Translations under genes and position numbers: made by a program
From: a virus
Taxonomy: Duplodnaviria > Heunggongvirae > Uroviricota > Caudoviricetes
IMG/VR virus record: IMGVR_UViG_2703718855_000003
Coordinates: 1 to 42,021 of that record
Direction: 5' to 3' (one strand)
DNA length: 42,021 bases
Part shown: positions 10,236 through 26,262 of the stretch, in pieces
Numbering within the stretch: position 1 is the stretch's first letter
Layout of the letters: the number at the start of each line of letters is the position of its first letter
The notes under the pieces: model-generated
What the model was told of the DNA's origin: nothing
The model's database searches: none
The model's input: only the letters and a program-made list of their open reading frames with translations

Positions 10236-12314
10236 TTACCCCGGTATTTGTTGCATTCCGGCGAGTTGTGCCAGTATGTCGGAACCTGGTTTTTGTTGAA
10301 CGTCGAGCCTGATTACCTGAGAAGTATTATTTGGTGAATATACGTTTCCCCGGTTCATTGCCAGCGCCCGCATCACATCATCGCCACTTACTGCACGAGC
10401 GGCGTCCCCATTTTCATGGTTAATAATGCCCTGAATTAGCTTTCTCATTATCTCAAAATTAGAACCATCGATTTTCTCCTTAACACCTAATCCGGTGTAC
10501 TGAGAGAGATAGCTTTTATAGGACGATGTGTTATTTCCATCAGATGAAGGGGCATAAATATCAATAATCTGATCAATCGTATTTTTGCCGCGTTTCAGGT
10601 ATAGCATTACCTGCCGATCTAAGGCAACAATGCCTTCCAGCATCGTCGGGAAGCTGGCAAAACGGGCATTTGGCCCCGATTCCAGGGTAGCCCCTTTTTG
10701 TCCTGCGAAATTAAGATTTCCGGGATTGTTATTCCTGATCCCTCTGGATAAATATGCAGATCTGTTTACTTGATTTGAAAATCCCTGCAATCCTCCAGGC
10801 CAGACCTTACCCGGATTGTTTTTTTGCCACTCCTGCACTTCGTTAAAATAATCAAAGTTGAAACGCCCCTCCAGCCCTTTCATTTCCTCACTGGTGGTAG
10901 GTGTGTCATTTGTAGGAATAGCCAATCCAGCTACTGTTCCGGCTGTAGCCCCAAGAAGACTTCCACCAACAACACGGGCGGCAACTCCGGTCGTTGTGGC
11001 TGCCACAGCACCAACTCTCGATGGTCCAGCAAGTACTGCGGCCCCAAAAAGCCAGGGATGTTCAACCGCAAAACCAACAAACCCGCTAAGTGCCTTAACA
11101 ACCTTTGCAACATTTTCGGCAAAATTATTCAGGTCGTTATTAAAATCCGGGCCATTTACATACTTACCAAGTTTATCCAGACCTGTTTCAACATCAGTCA
11201 AAATTCTTTTAAAGTTCTCACCGTTAAGGAAATTTAGACCAGCATTCTTTACACCATTAGATATTCTAATTAGCTGTACAGAGTTACCCGACATTACCCC
11301 CTGAAATCCGCTGGTAAGTTGATCCCAGTTATTTTCTAAGTTGCTGGTAAGATTCTGATACTGGCTTGTATGTCCAGAGGTGAGCAACGAGTCATTCTGA
11401 GAAGCTCGCGATAAAAACTCTTTGTTGAGTTCAGGTATTTTGTCCTGATATTTGACTAACTGGTTAGCAATACCAAAATTTACCCATCCAAGGCCACGAC
11501 CTCTGAGCATGCTCTGAGTAAGTCCAGTTCCCTCATACTCCTTTGCAAGAGCAGCAACTCTTTCTAACAATACAGGAAGATTTTCTGCTGCCCCTTTTTT
11601 AGGATTTATCCCTAATCCAATTAGCCCGTTGTAGGCAGGATGCTGAGTGTCATTTTGCGCGGCTGCCAGTGTATTGAGCAAATTACCAACACCGGAAAAA
11701 TAAGGCGAATAAGTGCTTTCTGCCGCCTTTAACTCTCCTGGCGTTGCCTGCAATTCATCAGCATTTTTCTGTTTCTCTACAACATTACGAGCCATCATGC
11801 CAAAGCCAAACGGCCCGGCAACACCCATAACCGCAAGTTTTGTCCCCCACGATACGGTGGTTTTAAACAGGTTGTTTAATCTCGAAGTCGTCGTCCGTAG
11901 CGTAGAATTGATCTGCTTGTAAGTTTTCAGCGTCTGTTTGGCGTTTTTCCCCAGCCCGCTGAGGTACTTATCAAACATCGTTTCGCCGCGACCTTTATAG
12001 TTGCTCACCAGCGAATCAGGTGTTTTCCCGCTGCCAACAAAGCGCCATTTTTCATCCCTTAAACGTCCATCAGTGGAAGCAGCCAGAACTGGCGCGGGTG
12101 AAGATGGTTTCCTGGGAGCCTGATTGGCTTCTCCGCCTGTGGTTGTCTGCCAAGAGCCACCTCCCGGACCGGTATTTGAAGGTATTTTAAGCGGCGTACC
12201 GGCAGGGCCAATCATCAGTCCGTTGCGATACTTTTCAAATATCGCCTCAAGCCGCCTGAGGTGTTCTTCATTAACATCCAGCGTCAGAACTGGCATCTGG
12301 TTACCAGCCATCAC
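10236..12314 (-). CDS. Tail tape measure protein
   Basis: 692 aa, largest tail ORF, Gly/Ala-rich hydrophobic central block, directly after the frameshifted chaperone pair. Confidence 0.7.
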   Translation of the reverse strand: MMAGNQMPVLTLDVNEEHLRRLEAIFEKYRNGLMIGPAGTPLKIPSNTGPGGGSWQTTTGGEANQAPRKPSSPAPVLAASTDGRLRDEKWRFVGSGKTPDSLVSNYKGRGETMFDKYLSGLGKNAKQTLKTYKQINSTLRTTTSRLNNLFKTTVSWGTKLAVMGVAGPFGFGMMARNVVEKQKNADELQATPGELKAAESTYSPYFSGVGNLLNTLAAAQNDTQHPAYNGLIGLGINPKKGAAENLPVLLERVAALAKEYEGTGLTQSMLRGRGLGWVNFGIANQLVKYQDKIPELNKEFLSRASQNDSLLTSGHTSQYQNLTSNLENNWDQLTSGFQGVMSGNSVQLIRISNGVKNAGLNFLNGENFKRILTDVETGLDKLGKYVNGPDFNNDLNNFAENVAKVVKALSGFVGFAVEHPWLFGAAVLAGPSRVGAVAATTTGVAARVVGGSLLGATAGTVAGLAIPTNDTPTTSEEMKGLEGRFNFDYFNEVQEWQKNNPGKVWPGGLQGFSNQVNRSAYLSRGIRNNNPGNLNFAGQKGATLESGPNARFASFPTMLEGIVALDRQVMLYLKRGKNTIDQIIDIYAPSSDGNNTSSYKSYLSQYTGLGVKEKIDGSNFEIMRKLIQGIINHENGDAARAVSGDDVMRALAMNRGNVYSPNNTSQVIRLDVQQKPGSDILAQLAGMQQIPG

Positions 12315-12604
12315 AATACTCCTGCGGGATTTTTGAATTTGAGCAGCTCACGAAACTGAGCTGCTGTTTTTACATTTAGGCCGGAATCTGCACAGATGTC
12401 TCTGAATCCGGCTCCGGCTGAGTAGTCGAGGATGTCGCTGATGACGTGTTCGCCGTCGCGCCAGAACTGGCGGCTGATTTCAATGTCGGCAATGAAGCGA
12501 TCCATTCCGTAAGATTCAATAACGAGCATTGAGTGCTCCATACTCCATTGACCACATCCATAGTCCCCTTCGCCTGCTCCGGTGAATTTATCGACGAGAC
12601 GCAT
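12311..12604 (-). CDS. Tail assembly chaperone, frameshift-extension ORF (T-like part)
   Basis: 97-aa ORF in the -1 frame relative to the upstream chaperone; its ATG lies 2 nt after a T8 slippery run. Confidence 0.55.
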   Translation of the reverse strand: MRLVDKFTGAGEGDYGCGQWSMEHSMLVIESYGMDRFIADIEISRQFWRDGEHVISDILDYSAGAGFRDICADSGLNVKTAAQFRELLKFKNPAGVL

Positions 12605-13005
12605 GTAAAAAAAATGAGCTCACCCGCCACTTCATCCAAATCAATGATTTCACGCTCCAGCGCCATATCGAGAGGGATTGTGTCGTAGCCTTTACCCTCC
12701 ACTGGGTAAACAAGATTTGCCAGGCGAATGACCTCATTAACAAGTGTATTACGGACCCCTTTATCACCTTCCCAGATATTAGAATCACGCGAGATCCGCT
12801 CCAGCATCAAAAAAGCGATACGCGGACCCGCAACGACGCCAAGACCTTCTGAAAAAATGGCAGAAAAAGTTTTACTCAGAATGAAGAAATGCTCTTTAAA
12901 CACCTCTTTGCTAATCGGCGTGGCATGGATCCAGCCATTATCCTTTTCTGTCCGGACAGGAATAATCAGGTTTAAATTTCGCGCGATTTTCATACCAGAT
13001 CCCAC
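12376..13005 (-). CDS. Tail assembly chaperone (G-like part)
   Basis: 209 aa between tube and tape measure; contains the slippery T TTT TTT heptamer near codon 130. Confidence 0.55.
   Translation of the reverse strand: MGSGMKIARNLNLIIPVRTEKDNGWIHATPISKEVFKEHFFILSKTFSAIFSEGLGVVAGPRIAFLMLERISRDSNIWEGDKGVRNTLVNEVIRLANLVYPVEGKGYDTIPLDMALEREIIDLDEVAGELIFFTCVSSINSPEQAKGTMDVVNGVWSTQCSLLNLTEWIASLPTLKSAASSGATANTSSATSSTTQPEPDSETSVQIPA
12607..12614 (-). other. Candidate -1 programmed ribosomal frameshift slippery site
   Basis: Plus-strand A8 (minus-sense TTTTTTTT) read in the chaperone frame as ...CTC ATT TTT TTT ACA...; a -1 slip gives TTT TTT TAC ATG CGT..., fusing into the 12311..12604 ORF. Confidence 0.5.
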
Positions 13006-13433
13006 ATTTCAGAGTTGATGTAATACGTACCAGTAATGGTGATGGCCACACCCGGCTCGCCCCCGGCGAAGGTCATATCCTGCACGTTGGTGATCGCCGT
13101 GTTATAGATATCGAAGTCACCGAACACCGTGCTGTCGCTATACACTTTTGCGTCGCCGATCGTGGCATTCTTTTCCCATTGCGTCTTGAATTGTTTTCCC
13201 AGCGCCTGGCTACGCAGCAGATGAACACGCGCCTGTAAAATCATGTATGGCTGCGGCGACTGCACGGCTCCCGTCATAGCGGGTAAAAACTCCGTGATAT
13301 TGCCCTGAAAGGACAATTCGACGCCTTCTTTTGCCAGAAAAGAGGCGGACACATTCAGTTCAGAATGGGAGGTAAATTTAACGCTGGCGCGAACCCGGTT
13401 AAGGGTGCCAACGGGGATCATTGGATTAGGCAC
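12990..13433 (-). CDS. Tail tube protein
   Basis: 147 aa immediately after the sheath gene. Confidence 0.6.
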   Translation of the reverse strand: MPNPMIPVGTLNRVRASVKFTSHSELNVSASFLAKEGVELSFQGNITEFLPAMTGAVQSPQPYMILQARVHLLRSQALGKQFKTQWEKNATIGDAKVYSDSTVFGDFDIYNTAITNVQDMTFAGGEPGVAITITGTYYINSEMWDLV

Positions 13434-13444
13434 GGTTCAGTCCC

Positions 13445-14782
13445 TCACGAAAGCTGCATTGTCACATTGATGTTAAAAATGATTTCGACAAATCCGCGCA
13501 TCGGCGTATAGGAGGCCGAAAGGCCTGCATAACGCCCGATACCGTAATCATTGGGATTAGTGTTGATATACTGGCGGAAAGGCACTGCATCGACGACAGG
13601 CTGACCGTTGACCAGGCCGTAAGATACGCCCGTATTGAACACCGCCTGTGCGACCTGCTGCAGACGGTCGATCCCGTCCTGGTTGTAGTAAAGCGGGTTA
13701 ATTGGGTTATTGCTACCGTTGATCACCGTGTTGGCGAGCTGCATATCGACATTAATCTGCACCCAGTCCACGGAATACCAGTACGTCATATCGTTACCGT
13801 CACTGGTAACGCCTTTCACCAGAATCGTGTTGGAAATTCCCCCCTCAGCCCCCGTGTCGACGTAGTTAATATTCTGCTTCGTCATCGTGACCAGAATTGA
13901 ATTTTTGCCCTTGTGGGCGTTTACCGCCTGTAGATAACGAAATGCCATCGGCGGCACCTTGTTGATTTCTGAAGGTGATGCGGAAACATAGTTCCACATT
14001 ACGGCTGCTGCCGCGTTTGTCGCCGGGTACGTATCATCCGCCGTTGCAATAACCGACTTAATACCGGCATAAGGCGAAACGTAATTCGTGTCGTCCGGCG
14101 TTTTCGTCAGCACGAAGAAATACTGCATCGCTTCGTTGGCGGTGTGGAGTTTTGCCAGACTGATAAATTCTGCGTCACCATCCCACCGCTGCGGCACCAG
14201 ATACGCATAAAACCGCAGGAGCGGATCTTCCATATAAGCTTTCAGTGCAGCGATTTCCTTACTGACCCCGCCTTTCTGTACTCCCAGCTCCAGCAGGTAA
14301 ATCCCAACTGAATTTCCCTGGGCAAAAAACGTGTTTACTGCCGTCACCAGATTTTCACTGCCGACAATGGAAAACTGCCCCAGTGTCACTGGCGAACCGG
14401 AAAGCTGAGAATCAGCAATCGTCCAGGTCAGTGTTTTTTCATCCGTGACGGTAGCAGTATATTCGCCATTCCACGCGTCGGGCGAACACCCGGAAACAAC
14501 AATTTTCACCTCAGAACTGTTTTCGCGTCGGATGTTGCTCCCTTCCGGAAGCGTCATCGTAACGGTGACGTTTGCCGCAGATTTTCCTGCGGCAGCCGCC
14601 GACAACGCAGCAATCGGATTTTTAACCAGATCGTTAATATCCTGATTGCTGGTGAGTAATACAGGCTTCCCCGGCTCATGAGTCGTGGAGCCAAACGAGA
14701 GAACCGCAGACATCTGCTGCAGATTCGAGGGTATGGCCCCGATGGTCTGGGACACATTCACCGTGACGATATTAAACCCCAT
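13445..14782 (-). CDS. Contractile tail sheath protein
   Basis: 445 aa; N-terminal region (...KPVLLTSNQDINDLVKNPIAALSAAAAGKSAANVTVTMTL...) resembles the P2 FI-type sheath N-terminus as I recall it. Confidence 0.7.
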   Translation of the reverse strand: MGFNIVTVNVSQTIGAIPSNLQQMSAVLSFGSTTHEPGKPVLLTSNQDINDLVKNPIAALSAAAAGKSAANVTVTMTLPEGSNIRRENSSEVKIVVSGCSPDAWNGEYTATVTDEKTLTWTIADSQLSGSPVTLGQFSIVGSENLVTAVNTFFAQGNSVGIYLLELGVQKGGVSKEIAALKAYMEDPLLRFYAYLVPQRWDGDAEFISLAKLHTANEAMQYFFVLTKTPDDTNYVSPYAGIKSVIATADDTYPATNAAAAVMWNYVSASPSEINKVPPMAFRYLQAVNAHKGKNSILVTMTKQNINYVDTGAEGGISNTILVKGVTSDGNDMTYWYSVDWVQINVDMQLANTVINGSNNPINPLYYNQDGIDRLQQVAQAVFNTGVSYGLVNGQPVVDAVPFRQYINTNPNDYGIGRYAGLSASYTPMRGFVEIIFNINVTMQLS

Positions 14783-15726
14783 TATTTAACCTCATATTTA
14801 CAAATGACTTTTTCAATCAACTGCCGGGATATTTCCCGGGCGGTGCTCTGGTAGTAATTCACGTCAAAATCGACAATCTTTTTCTTCGCCAGAGCGTTGA
14901 TTTCAACCTGTCCCGACTTTGCGTCCTGAACCACCGGAATATTGGTTACACCAAACTTTTCCTCCTCCAGCGCCCTGTTCACCACCGAGTCGACAAGATC
15001 CAGCGCCATTTTGTTGCTGAATCCGTAAAGCGTCAGGCGAACCGAATCCTGGACGAGCTGGAATCGCTCACCACCGAAAACAACGGGAGCCATCTGCAAA
15101 GGAATACTGTTGCGAACATCCACCGCGATATACGGAGGGCGAAGGTTCTGCGGTACCAGGTAAGACGGATACACGGTCGCGGCATCTTTCATTTGCAGCC
15201 AGATCGGGATGCTGTTGGATATGATCTGCTCGTCGCTGATATCCTCCTCGCAGTCGATAATCTGGGAACGCATGGTTGGCAAAATCGCCATGCCGCGATA
15301 ATGAAAAATACCCGACTGCTGATAGCGGCTCTCCATTCGAGAAAAAGCGAACTGGACGCCGCCGTACTCACCGAGATAGATCGCATCGGGATTTTCCACA
15401 TTAAAATCATCAACCTGCTGAACAGGCGTGAAAATAATGTTGTTCACATCCTTCGAGACAGACTCGTCCTGAATCGCAATAACCTGACGATGCAGGCTGC
15501 CTTTGATTTTCAGACGAGTTGGTGACTCAATATTCAGACGACACAGTTCATCGCAACTGATGATTTCCGCATTAACCCAATAGACAAAACCATCCAGCGG
15601 CAGAACCTGCCGGACATAGAGCCTGAACGTGATTTCCTGGTCTGACGAGATGGTTTCAACTGCGGATTTAAGAACGGACGAGAGCTGCGAACTGTGCTGT
15701 CCGGCTAATTCTTCAAGACTCGGCAT
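14782..15726 (-). CDS. Phage structural protein (head or neck; family not recognised)
   Basis: 314 aa in the head-to-tail interval; coupled to neighbours. Confidence 0.4.
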   Translation of the reverse strand: MPSLEELAGQHSSQLSSVLKSAVETISSDQEITFRLYVRQVLPLDGFVYWVNAEIISCDELCRLNIESPTRLKIKGSLHRQVIAIQDESVSKDVNNIIFTPVQQVDDFNVENPDAIYLGEYGGVQFAFSRMESRYQQSGIFHYRGMAILPTMRSQIIDCEEDISDEQIISNSIPIWLQMKDAATVYPSYLVPQNLRPPYIAVDVRNSIPLQMAPVVFGGERFQLVQDSVRLTLYGFSNKMALDLVDSVVNRALEEEKFGVTNIPVVQDAKSGQVEINALAKKKIVDFDVNYYQSTAREISRQLIEKVICKYEVK

Positions 15727-16168
15727 TGTTATCTATCCACGCTATAAAGCTGCCCTTAAACAGGCCGCCATCTATGAATGACGGGCGCCGCTCCCCGGTA
15801 TATTTGTCCTTAAGCCTTGAGTTAACACCCTGTAACGCAGCCTGGGTTGGGACCTGATTTCCGTTGATCGTCATTCCGGCCATTTCTTCGGTTTCAAGAA
15901 ATATATGGAAAATCTTCCCGGTCCCTTCCAGAAAATGCTCGCCAGGTAGCGGAGCCTTATACTTGAAGTGATTGACCAACTGGTACGCCAGTTCAGTACC
16001 TGCCTCCTGGATAATCTCGTCCTTATGCATTTCCCAGAAGTGCGTAAAAATTTCGTATCGCTCCTCGAGGTCACAGGCCACGTCAAACGTGGTTTTTCCC
16101 GGTTCGTCGCCGTAGTCATACGGCTGGTCGATAACCCCAAAACAAAGTTTCATGGCGTGTAACCCCAT
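15713..16168 (-). CDS. Phage structural protein (head completion / connector candidate)
   Basis: 151 aa, overlapping stops/starts with neighbours. Confidence 0.4.
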   Translation of the reverse strand: MGLHAMKLCFGVIDQPYDYGDEPGKTTFDVACDLEERYEIFTHFWEMHKDEIIQEAGTELAYQLVNHFKYKAPLPGEHFLEGTGKIFHIFLETEEMAGMTINGNQVPTQAALQGVNSRLKDKYTGERRPSFIDGGLFKGSFIAWIDNNAES

Positions 16169-24728: not shown

Positions 24729-24803
<75 letters not shown>

Positions 24804-26107: not shown

Positions 26108-26184
26108 TGGTCCGCCACCGAGGACTCGAACCTCGCACAATCAACTTAGAAGGTTGATGCTCTATCCCGATGAGCTAGTGGCGG
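26108..26184 (-). tRNA. tRNA-Arg (anticodon UCU)
   Basis: 77-nt cloverleaf: acceptor CCGCCAC/GTGGCGG, D-arm GCTC-ATCGGGATA-GAGC, anticodon arm TCAAC-CTTCTAA-GTTGA, T-arm CGAGG-TTCGAGT-CCTCG, encoded CCA. Confidence 0.85.
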
Positions 26185-26186
26185 AA

Positions 26187-26262
26187 TGGTGGCCCTTGCT
26201 GGATTTGAACCAGCGACCTGGCGATTATGAGTCGCTCGCTCTCACCACTGAGCTAAAGGGCC
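26187..26262 (-). tRNA. tRNA with CAU anticodon (tRNA-Ile2/ileX-like; Met not excluded)
   Basis: 76-nt cloverleaf GGCCCTT...AAGGGCC-A-CCA, anticodon loop CTCATAA; closely resembles E. coli ileX as recalled; 2 nt upstream of the tRNA-Arg. Confidence 0.85.

What the first reader, a model, noticed from the sequence alone, without database searches (positions are those of the whole stretch)
12311..13005. Tail assembly chaperone pair with a canonical -1 slippery heptamer
Seen: between tube and tape-measure genes, a 209-aa ORF and a 97-aa ORF overlap in frames offset by -1; a T8 run (minus-sense, plus coordinates 12607-12614) supplies a T TTT TTT heptamer whose -1 slip leads directly into the ATG-proximal codons of the second ORF. 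Established: a conserved programmed frameshift in this position is widespread in tailed phages. Unusual detail: the zero-frame ORF continues about 76 codons past the slip site instead of terminating shortly after.
Basis: partly seen in the sequence, partly recalled or inferred. Interest (0 to 1): 0.4.

Follow-up and report, generated by a model that had tools for sequence, protein, structure and literature searches.

The report
Phage tail chaperone frameshift, long overlap
This E. coli prophage makes two tail-assembly helper proteins from one gene by slipping back one base at a run of eight T's, which is a well-known phage trick, but here the slip sits mid-protein, so the two products carry different conserved C-terminal ends read from about 76 doubly coding codons.

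Summary
On the minus strand a 205-aa ORF (12993..12376; 209 aa from the upstream GTG) and a -1 ORF (open from 12619, stop at 12311) overlap between the sheath/tube genes and a tape-measure/lytic-transglycosylase gene. T8 at 12614..12607 gives an in-phase T_TTT_TTT, and a -1 slip gives ...ELIFFYMRLVDKF.

The heptamer alone is not beyond chance. Its conservation is:
- 126 unique homologues all keep TTT TTT A on the same codon boundary.
- All 30 slip-site Phe codons in 15 lineages are TTT, against 47:41 TTT:TTC elsewhere.
- A 95-115-codon -1 ORF ends at the next gene's start in all but a few.

The "unusual detail" is real and family-wide:
- The 0 frame continues a median of 59 codons, 76 here.
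- It encodes a conserved segment, and residues 130-170 are modelled with confidence.
- Substitution patterns show selection on both frames in the overlap.

Best reading: a G/GT-type tail assembly chaperone pair made by -1 recoding. It belongs to a large family that is annotated only as hypothetical. G and GT share 129 residues and then have alternative C-termini. Ribosomal versus transcriptional slippage is unresolved. This is a known kind in a new variant, of moderate interest.

The parts
13445..14782 (-). Tail sheath gene (445 aa), upstream context
   Evidence: phrog_205 'tail sheath', E 1.3e-54. The same gene order is seen in all distant loci.
12990..13433 (-). 147-aa gene in the tail-tube position. 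Its TGA overlaps the ATG of the next gene (ATGA).
   Evidence: ORF list and junction sequence. phrog_6566 has unknown function, and there is no PDB sequence match. The tube assignment therefore rests on position and size only.
12376..12993 (-).
   Evidence: phrog_11810 matches full length. It is annotated as a 205-aa hypothetical protein in RefSeq and GenBank relatives. The AF2 model has mean pLDDT 88.7.
12607..12993 (-). Codons 1-129, the N-terminal segment shared by G and GT
   Evidence: Homologues match the query over residues 1-130 in hundreds of clusters. Substitutions are synonymous-biased in frame 0 only.
12607..12614 (-). T8 run. The slippery heptamer T_TTT_TTT is 12613..12607, followed by the invariant A at 12606.
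   Evidence: Conserved in 126/126 unique homologues: T8 in 116, T7 in 3, T6 in 4, T9 in 3. It always ends on a codon boundary and is always followed by A. Synonymous-site conservation is shown.
12311..12607 (-). -1-frame continuation 'T': 98 codons (Y130..L227 of GT) plus TGA at 12313..12311, which overlaps the tape-measure ATG (TGATG)
   Evidence: phrog_14324. The conserved motifs YG..F.ADIDR.R.FWR.G ... SA..FRQRYL appear in 21 aligned fusions. Selection acts on frame -1 only in the stretch beyond the G stop.
12484..12606 (-). G residues 130-170, a G-specific segment modelled with high confidence. It overlaps the variable linker of GT in the -1 frame.
   Evidence: pLDDT is 93-98 up to about residue 170, and helix 119-135 spans the slip site. 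The segment is conserved in distant homologues. In this clade frame 0 is selected (p 9e-6) and frame -1 is not significant. The GT model is disordered at 138-148.
12379..12483 (-). G residues 171-205, a low-confidence Ser/Thr-rich tail ending in ..IPA. It overlaps the conserved part of the T domain in the -1 frame.
   Evidence: pLDDT 51-63. Frame -1 is selected (p 0.003) and frame 0 is not significant. A terminal [VILF]-P-x motif is found in 68/122 family representatives.
10236..12311 (-). Tape-measure-like protein with a C-terminal lytic transglycosylase/lysozyme domain (ATG at 12311; the ORF list starts it at GTG 12314)
   Evidence: phrog_7694, with partial matches to phrog_2276 'tail length tape measure protein' and to endolysin/transglycosylase families. 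Relatives are annotated as lytic transglycosylase or tape measure.

Best explanation
The region encodes a G/GT-type pair of tail assembly chaperones of a contractile-tailed, Rac-locus E. coli prophage.

Most ribosomes translate the zero frame and make G (205 aa). A minority slip back one base on U_UUU_UUU (12613..12607). Both Phe-tRNAs re-pair with UUU, translation continues in the -1 frame, and GT results (227 aa: residues 1-129 of G plus 98 -1-frame residues). GT terminates at a TGA that overlaps the tape-measure ATG.

Unlike lambda G/GT or P2 E/E+E', the slip site lies inside the protein, within predicted helix 119-135. G therefore keeps its own conserved C-terminal segment (residues 130-170, then a flexible tail that often ends in a hydrophobic-Pro-x motif). 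GT replaces that segment with a flexible linker and a helical T domain.

The 76-codon overlap appears to be time-shared in this clade. Where G is confidently modelled and under selection, the -1 frame encodes the variable GT linker. Where T is conserved, the zero frame encodes the G tail.

Shown here: the anatomy, the conservation of the signal, selection on both frames, and the synteny.

Inferred: that the fusion is actually made, that the slip is ribosomal, and that the products act as in lambda (shared part on the tape measure, T domain recruiting tube protein).
For: Anatomy and phase:
-.

Conservation of the signal:
- 126 unique homologues keep the run ending on a zero-frame codon boundary and followed by A. 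This covers the window's clade, a Chronis-like clade and 11 distant loci with 29-46% amino-acid identity.
- FF128-129 is invariant in 45 diverse proteins.
- All 30 slip-site Phe codons in 15 lineages are TTT, versus 47:41 TTT:TTC elsewhere. The preceding codon ends in T in 14/15.

The -1 ORF:
- It runs 95-115 codons in all but a few sequences and has conserved motifs.
- It ends within -2..+11 nt of the next gene's start in 9 of 11 distant lineages.
- It has no ATG before the conserved domain in 7 of 11 distant lineages, as read by eye from the fusion sequences.

Co-linear N+T proteins:
- Seven database proteins match both the N-terminal part and the T part in one ORF (P0125, P0128, P0131, P0133, P0214, P0177, P0251).
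- Four of the six of these that were aligned with the fusions carry FFY at the junction.
- The one locus checked at the DNA level has T9.

Both frames coding in the overlap:
- The zero-frame extension alone finds colinear matches in distant homologues, about 40 with E<1e-4 among 150 representatives.
- AF2 gives pLDDT above 93 up to residue 170.
- Substitutions that are synonymous in either frame are enriched over those that change both proteins. This holds in four independent sequence groups, while flanking single-coding controls show only their own frame.
- Stop-creating changes: 1 observed against 18 expected.

Synteny:
- Sheath, tube-position gene, G/T, then tape measure in every locus examined.
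Against: - No direct evidence shows that the fusion protein exists.
- No downstream RNA structure was found. The single sequence has z -0.11, and RNAalifold found no pairs in 19 diverse sequences.
- An upstream Shine-Dalgarno-like element is present in only about 13 of 21 lineages.
- One lineage has only G_TTT_TTT, which is a weaker P-site re-pairing.
- The substitution tests count differences on a spanning tree of recombining sequences, so their p-values are nominal.
Confidence: 0.72

Rival explanations
1. The same GT fusion is made by transcriptional slippage. RNA polymerase adds one extra U while copying the T8 run, producing a minority of mRNAs in which G(1-129) and T are in one frame. Ribosomes do not shift.
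For: - The signal is a homopolymer, and T8 is by far the commonest form (116/126).
- No conserved RNA stimulator was found.
- T9 variants exist in assemblies, which shows that the run is prone to length slippage at some level.
- The protein product would be identical, as follows directly from the sequence.
Against: - T7 and T6 lineages keep the arrangement. From general knowledge, these runs are short for efficient polymerase slippage in enterobacteria, where runs of about 9 or more are typical.
- When the run shortens it always loses Ts from the 5' side and keeps the in-phase TTT TTT A. This is expected for a ribosomal heptamer or tetramer.
- The extra 5' T of T8 is explained by the Val/Ile codon at position 127.
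Confidence: 0.15
2. There is no recoding. The 97-aa ORF is translated on its own from the ATG at 12604, and the T8 run is incidental.
For: - In this clade an ATG lies 2 nt after the run, and a GGTGAG lies upstream of it.
- PHROGs holds the 97-aa ORF as its own family, phrog_14324.
Against: - The ATG is specific to this clade. In 7 of 11 distant lineages the -1 frame has no ATG between the run and the conserved T domain (read by eye), while the run is universal.
- Silent-site conservation of TTT TTT would have no explanation.
- The SD-like GGTGAG lies about 14 nt from the ATG in the sequence.
- Most gene callers do not call the ORF.
Confidence: 0.05
3. The frameshift arrangement is real, but the proteins are not tape-measure chaperones. 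They could be, for example, structural tail or baseplate-initiator proteins with two isoforms.
For: - No homology to any curated chaperone family or solved chaperone fold was found.
- G has a conserved C-terminal peptide motif that could be a docking element in a structure.
Against: - Position between the tube and tape-measure genes, together with a conserved frameshift, is from general knowledge the criterion by which G/GT pairs were defined across phages that share no sequence similarity.
- Several sub-threshold Foldseek hits carry chaperone names.
Confidence: 0.06
4. Artefact: a homopolymer sequencing error or a decaying prophage gene has split one ORF in two.
For: - A few database proteins are single 226-227-aa ORFs. 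P0001 has the run as T9, and P0002-P0004 shift frame at other places.
Against: - T8 with both frames open is found in 116 of 126 unique sequences, including cultured, plaque-forming phages (Chronis, PdC23, vB_YenM, QDWS).
- P0002-P0004 shift at scattered positions and are singletons, which is typical of assembly errors.
Confidence: 0.01

Closest known systems
Phage lambda gpG / gpGT (-1 frameshift on G_GGA_AAG)
   Same: - Two overlapping ORFs lie between the major tail gene and the tape-measure gene.
- The long form is made by a -1 shift and shares its N-terminal part with the short form.
- The T part ends at the tape-measure gene.
- The presumed logic is the same: a fixed low ratio of GT to G (review PMC5009743).
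   Different: [quoted passage not shown] Here the shift is 76 codons before the G stop, inside a predicted helix.
- G therefore has its own conserved C-terminal segment that GT lacks.
- The heptamer differs.
- No sequence homology was detected.
- The tail is contractile.
Phage P2 gpE / gpE+E' (Peduoviridae)
   Same: - It belongs to a contractile tail with the order sheath, tube, E/E', tape measure (gpT).
- It uses a T-rich heptamer, T_TTT_TTG.
- E' overlaps the start of the tape-measure gene.
   Different: - In P2 only 6 zero-frame codons follow the slip site, and gpE is 91 aa. Here 76 codons follow and G is 205 aa.
- hhalign of the family profile against gpE gives 0.2% probability.
Phage Mu gp41 / gp41-42 fusion (annotated -2 frameshift)
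   Same: It has the same position in a contractile tail module, and it is annotated as a tail assembly chaperone with a frameshift product.
   Different: - The shift is -2 rather than -1.
- No homology was detected.
SEA-PHAGES and Xu et al. sets of annotated tail-assembly-chaperone frameshifts
   Same: They share the same gene position and the same -1 heptamer logic.
   Different: The mean distance from slippery site to in-frame stop is 26 nt (SEA-PHAGES) and 36 nt (Xu set), according to PMC10885494. Here it is 228 nt, and the family median is 59 codons, about 177 nt. The same paper attributes its missed Xu-set frameshifts partly to distances above 30 nt.

Membership tests
G/GT-type tail assembly chaperone pair with programmed frameshift (positional/recoding definition) | Two overlapping ORFs lie between the major tail/tube gene and the tape-measure gene | tested here: met
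   The order is sheath (phrog_205), a 147-aa gene, G/T, then a tape-measure-like gene. The same order is seen in all related loci. The tube assignment rests on position only.
G/GT-type tail assembly chaperone pair with programmed frameshift (positional/recoding definition) | A slippery sequence in the correct phase lies inside the window where both frames are open | tested here: met
   T_TTT_TTT at 12613..12607. The -1 frame opens at 12619.
G/GT-type tail assembly chaperone pair with programmed frameshift (positional/recoding definition) | The slippery sequence and the two-frame arrangement are conserved among diverged relatives | tested here: met
   126/126 unique sequences keep the run. In 15 lineages, 30/30 slip-site Phe codons are TTT. 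The -1 ORF is conserved as protein.
G/GT-type tail assembly chaperone pair with programmed frameshift (positional/recoding definition) | The downstream ORF lacks its own conserved initiation site | tested here: met
   There is no ATG before the conserved T domain in 7 of 11 distant lineages, as read by eye. GTG and TTG starts were not examined systematically.
G/GT-type tail assembly chaperone pair with programmed frameshift (positional/recoding definition) | [quoted passage not shown] | tested here: not met
   76 codons remain here and the family median is 59. The typical distance is 26-36 nt (PMC10885494), and P2 has 6 codons.
G/GT-type tail assembly chaperone pair with programmed frameshift (positional/recoding definition) | The fusion protein is made at a low fixed ratio, both products are needed for tail assembly, and both are absent from virions | not testable with these tools
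   This needs protein detection and genetics.
Curated tail-assembly-chaperone protein families and solved chaperone folds (Pfam, NCBIfam, PHROGs, PDB) | Significant sequence match to a curated chaperone family | tested here: not met
   Pfam gave no relevant hit for G, T or 45 family members, and NCBIfam gave none. PHROGs 11810 and 14324 are 'unknown function'. The PDB profile search gave 0 hits.
Curated tail-assembly-chaperone protein families and solved chaperone folds (Pfam, NCBIfam, PHROGs, PDB) | Fold similarity to a known chaperone structure | tested here: inconclusive
P2 gpE / Mu gp41 families | Detectable homology to gpE or gp41 | tested here: not met
   hhalign probability is 0.2% for both.

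The most novel reading that the evidence does not exclude
In this family the frameshift does more than append a domain to a complete G. It acts as a switch inside the protein that exchanges one conserved C-terminal module for another. The G-specific module is residues 130-170, followed by a flexible tail that often ends in hydrophobic-Pro-x. The alternative module is a linker plus the T domain. Both are written in a time-shared doubly coding stretch of 58-76 codons. If the G-specific C-terminus has its own partner or role, for example oligomerising on the tape measure or docking to the tube or sheath initiator, then the lambda picture ('GT = G plus T') does not describe a large, unannotated group of contractile-tailed phages.
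Probability: 0.5. Interest if true: 0.5.

Novelty: new variant of a known kind. Interest (0 to 1): 0.4.

Why it matters
- Annotation. The family is large: 626 clusters at 50% identity, in prophages of E. coli, Salmonella and Shigella and in cultured Klebsiella, Pantoea, Yersinia and Shewanella phages. In every record inspected, G is 'hypothetical protein' and the T ORF and the frameshift are not annotated. The distance from slip site to stop is 5-9 times the average of annotated cases. The PRFect authors attribute some of their tool's missed frameshifts to distances above 30 nt.
- Biology. This is a clear natural case of long dual coding behind a recoding site, with selection measurable on both frames. 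It points to a chaperone architecture in which the short and long forms have alternative C-terminal modules. That idea can be tested directly with silent mutations in the run and truncations of G.
- Scale. The general phenomenon, the G/GT frameshift, is textbook, so the gain is incremental rather than fundamental.

Tried and rejected
- Viral-contig scans with P0169 and P0226 found nothing, and P0138 found one locus.
It was replaced by an alignment of database proteins only.
- Family and homology searches found nothing: Pfam, NCBIfam, a PDB sequence profile, and hhalign against P2 gpE and Mu gp41.
- Downstream stimulatory RNA structure: none was detectable in the single sequence (z -0.11) or in 19 diverse sequences.
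- Upstream SD-like stimulator: present in many lineages but not all, so it is left as a lead.
- Database 226-227-aa single-ORF proteins as evidence that the gene is 'really' unsplit: rejected. P0002-P0004 shift frame at scattered positions and are singletons, and only P0001 (T9) shifts at the run.
- Xu et al. 2004 could not be read in the held library. No paper found in the searches describes the frameshift in this phage group.
Full report
**What is there**

The relevant genes lie on the minus strand, in this order:
- a tail sheath gene (14782..13445; phrog_205, E 1e-54);
- a 147-aa gene in the tube position (13433..12990);
- the two ORFs of the finding;
- a 692-aa tape-measure-like gene with a lytic-transglycosylase domain (12314/12311..10236);
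- baseplate genes.

The window is a prophage at the Rac locus of E. coli, 100% identical over the 901 bases compared (window 12200..13100) to strain RM11911. In that genome PGAP calls the 205-aa ORF 'hypothetical protein' and calls neither the -1 ORF nor any slippage.

- T8 lies at 12614..12607.
- The zero-frame codons are ATT TTT TTT ACA.
- The -1 frame has a TGA just upstream and is open from 12619.
- A -1 slip reads FF-Y-M-R-L-V-D-K-F.
- The zero frame runs on for 76 codons to the stop at 12378..12376.

The likely start of the upstream gene is the ATG at 12993, giving 205 aa. It overlaps the preceding stop as ATGA. The -1 ORF's TGA overlaps the tape-measure ATG as TGATG, so the four genes look translationally coupled.

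**Is it more than chance?**

The heptamer alone is not. In-phase XXXYYYZ heptamers occur about twice per kb in this window's genes, three more lie in the same ORF, and T7 runs are only mildly enriched in the window. The case rests on comparison with relatives.

I collected 126 unique homologous DNA sequences:
- the window's own clade, reaching down to about 77% nucleotide identity;
- a second clade around Klebsiella phage Chronis;
- 11 distant loci with 29-46% protein identity.

The run is T8 in 116 of them, T7 in 3, T6 in 4 and T9 in 3. In the 123 with T6, T7 or T8 it ends on a zero-frame codon boundary; it also does so in one of the three T9 sequences (L059, whose upstream frame is broken) but not in the two whose T9 fuses the ORFs (L004, L061). 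In all 126 it is followed by A. When it shortens it loses Ts only from the 5' side.

In an alignment of 45 proteins at 33-42% identity to the query, the two Phe residues of the slip site are invariant. In 15 lineage representatives (under 75% identity to one another), all 30 slip-site Phe codons are TTT. Elsewhere in the same genes TTT:TTC is 47:41. The preceding codon ends in T in 14 of 15.

The -1 ORF is 95-115 codons long in all but a few sequences. It carries conserved motifs (YG..F.ADIDR.R.FWR.G ... SA..FRQRYL). In 9 of the 11 distant lineages it ends within -2 to +11 nt of the next gene's start; the exceptions are L066 (-98 nt) and L071, where it was not read through to its stop. In 7 of the 11 it has no ATG between the run and the conserved domain, as read by eye. 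This is the signature of a programmed recoding site and not of two independent genes.

**The 'unusual detail'**

A search of 1.84 billion cluster representatives found 626 clusters. Most are 186-200 aa and match the fusion query only over residues 1-130. Their remaining roughly 60 residues are not random. The window's zero-frame extension alone finds colinear matches at positions 130-187 in distant members, about 40 with E<1e-4 among 150 sequences. W152, S167 and L168 are nearly invariant or invariant.

AlphaFold2 on this alignment gives pLDDT 93-98 through residue 170. Helix 119-135 runs straight through the slip site and is followed by helix 138-152, a short strand and helix 161-167. Residues 171-205 are low confidence.

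Across 119 representatives the zero frame continues a median of 59 residues after FF, with a range of 30-90. In addition, 68 of 122 representatives end in [VILF]-P-x, against a background of 1.8% per position. The long zero-frame continuation is therefore a family trait and encodes real protein.

The GT model shows an intact N-terminal part, a disordered linker (138-148) and a helical T domain (152-221, pLDDT about 80-87).

**Dual coding**

I classified substitutions along a minimum spanning tree by their effect in each frame and compared them with expectation from all possible single-base changes.

| Region | Result |
|---|---|
| G-only region (control) | Only frame 0 shows purifying selection |
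| T-only region (control) | Only frame -1 shows purifying selection |
| Overlap, window clade | Changes silent in either frame are enriched over changes altering both proteins (frame 0 p 6e-5; frame -1 p 0.002); 1 stop-creating change against 18 expected |
| Overlap, three Chronis-clade groups | Same pattern in each group |
| G residues 131-170, window clade | Selection on frame 0 (p 9e-6); frame -1 not significant |
| G residues 171-205, window clade | Selection on frame -1 (p 0.003); frame 0 not significant |

In the window's clade the constraint is thus time-shared. The confidently modelled part of G lies over the variable GT linker, and the conserved T domain lies over the low-confidence G tail. 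In the Chronis clade the first 40 overlap codons show selection on both frames in two of the three groups; in the third (191-aa) group the frame -1 signal is only marginal (p 0.075). The p-values are nominal, because the sequences recombine and tree edges are not independent events.

**Mechanism**

The best-supported mechanism is -1 ribosomal frameshifting on U_UUU_UUU, yielding G (205 aa) and GT (227 aa).

The rivals are as follows:
- RNA-polymerase slippage on the homopolymer would give the identical protein and cannot be excluded from sequence. Against it, the T7 and T6 lineages keep the arrangement, and it is always the in-phase TTT TTT A that is kept.
- Independent initiation at the clade-specific ATG (12604) is unlikely, for the reasons given above.
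- Artefact is excluded by conservation in cultured phages.

I found no conserved downstream RNA structure. An SD-like GAGGTG/GAAGG lies 6-19 nt upstream in about 13 of 21 lineages but is not universal.

Seven database proteins match both the N-terminal part and the T part in a single ORF. Four of the six aligned with the fusions carry FFY at the junction. The one locus checked has T9, and so does L004/P0001. These show what the fusion looks like. They are most simply read as homopolymer length variants or assembly errors.

**Comparison with what is known**

The arrangement works like lambda G/GT and P2 E/E+E'. P2 even uses T_TTT_TTG in the same gene order. In P2, however, only 6 zero-frame codons follow the slip site. 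Lambda shifts 'near the 3' end' of G (PMC5009743). The mean slip-to-stop distance is 26 nt in about 2,500 annotated actinophage cases and 36 nt in the Xu et al. set (PMC10885494). Here it is 228 nt.

No homology to curated chaperone families or solved folds was found. The chaperone label is therefore positional and architectural.

None of the GenBank or RefSeq relatives annotate the frameshift. The papers found on these phages do not mention it.

**Verdict**

It is a known kind of system in a new variant and in a large family that is annotated only as hypothetical. The slip lies mid-protein and is followed by 58-76 doubly coding codons that give the short and long products alternative, separately conserved C-termini. 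Interest is moderate (0.4). What remains open is direct proof of the fusion, the ribosomal versus transcriptional mechanism, and the role of the G-specific C-terminus.

Noticed in passing
window 12990..12993 and 12309..12313 (minus strand): The stop and start codons overlap at both ends of the pair. The tube-position gene's TGA overlaps the G ATG (ATGA), and the -1 ORF's TGA overlaps the tape-measure ATG (TGATG). This suggests translational coupling of tube, G/GT and tape measure.
   Followed up: partly
C-terminus of the zero-frame product (window 12379..12387); family representatives P0121-P0270: 68 of 122 family representatives end in [VILF]-Pro-x (VPS, IPS, VPH and similar; the window has IPA). 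Background is 1.8% per position. The very last residues of the short product therefore look functional.
   Followed up: partly
L004 (IMG/VR UViG_2896595138), L061 (JGI 3300004607), L059; protein P0001 (6 contigs): In a few assemblies the run is T9, which puts G(1-129) and T in one ORF. The cause was not resolved: it could be a real length polymorphism of the homopolymer or an assembly error.
   Followed up: partly
L131, L142, L148, L149 (Chronis-like clade): One lineage has GTG TTT TTT A, that is, only T6 (G_TTT_TTT), through a silent Val change. Both frames are otherwise intact. It is a natural test case for how much of the heptamer is needed.
   Followed up: no
window 12615..12638 and the equivalent 24 nt upstream of the run in 20 other loci: A Shine-Dalgarno-like GAGGTG / GAAGG / GGTGA lies 6-19 nt upstream of the run in about 13 of 21 lineages (anti-SD duplex of -8.9 kcal/mol or better). 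It is absent or weak in the others. It may be a stimulator like the one in dnaX, or a by-product of conserved Glu-Val/Glu-Gly codons.
   Followed up: partly
window 6439..6445 (minus strand), inside ORF 5641..6816: This is the only other in-phase T_TTT_TTT among 20 minus-strand ORFs. The ORF sits among baseplate genes, and its counterpart in RM11911 is annotated 'type I restriction endonuclease'.
   Followed up: no
window about 15713..16168: PGAP marks the corresponding CDS in RM11911 as a 'frameshifted' pseudogene (442 nt). The window shows an intact 151-aa ORF over the same stretch.
   Followed up: no
window 24731..24803, 26108..26184, 26187..26262 (minus strand): There are three prophage tRNA genes: Gly-tcc, Arg-tct and a CAT-anticodon tRNA. 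ARAGORN calls the last one Met and PGAP calls it Ile. They lie upstream of the lysis genes.
   Followed up: no
window 10236..12314: The tape-measure-position protein carries a C-terminal muramidase/transglycosylase-like domain (residues about 496-674; phrog_873, phrog_7182). Distant relatives carry other cell-wall domains in the same gene position, namely VanY and Phage_lysozyme2.
   Followed up: no
L001 (PP818812.1): 'Actinobacillus phage vB_Apl-pPE4' is about 90% identical in DNA to E. coli prophages across this region. That is surprisingly close for the stated host.
   Followed up: no
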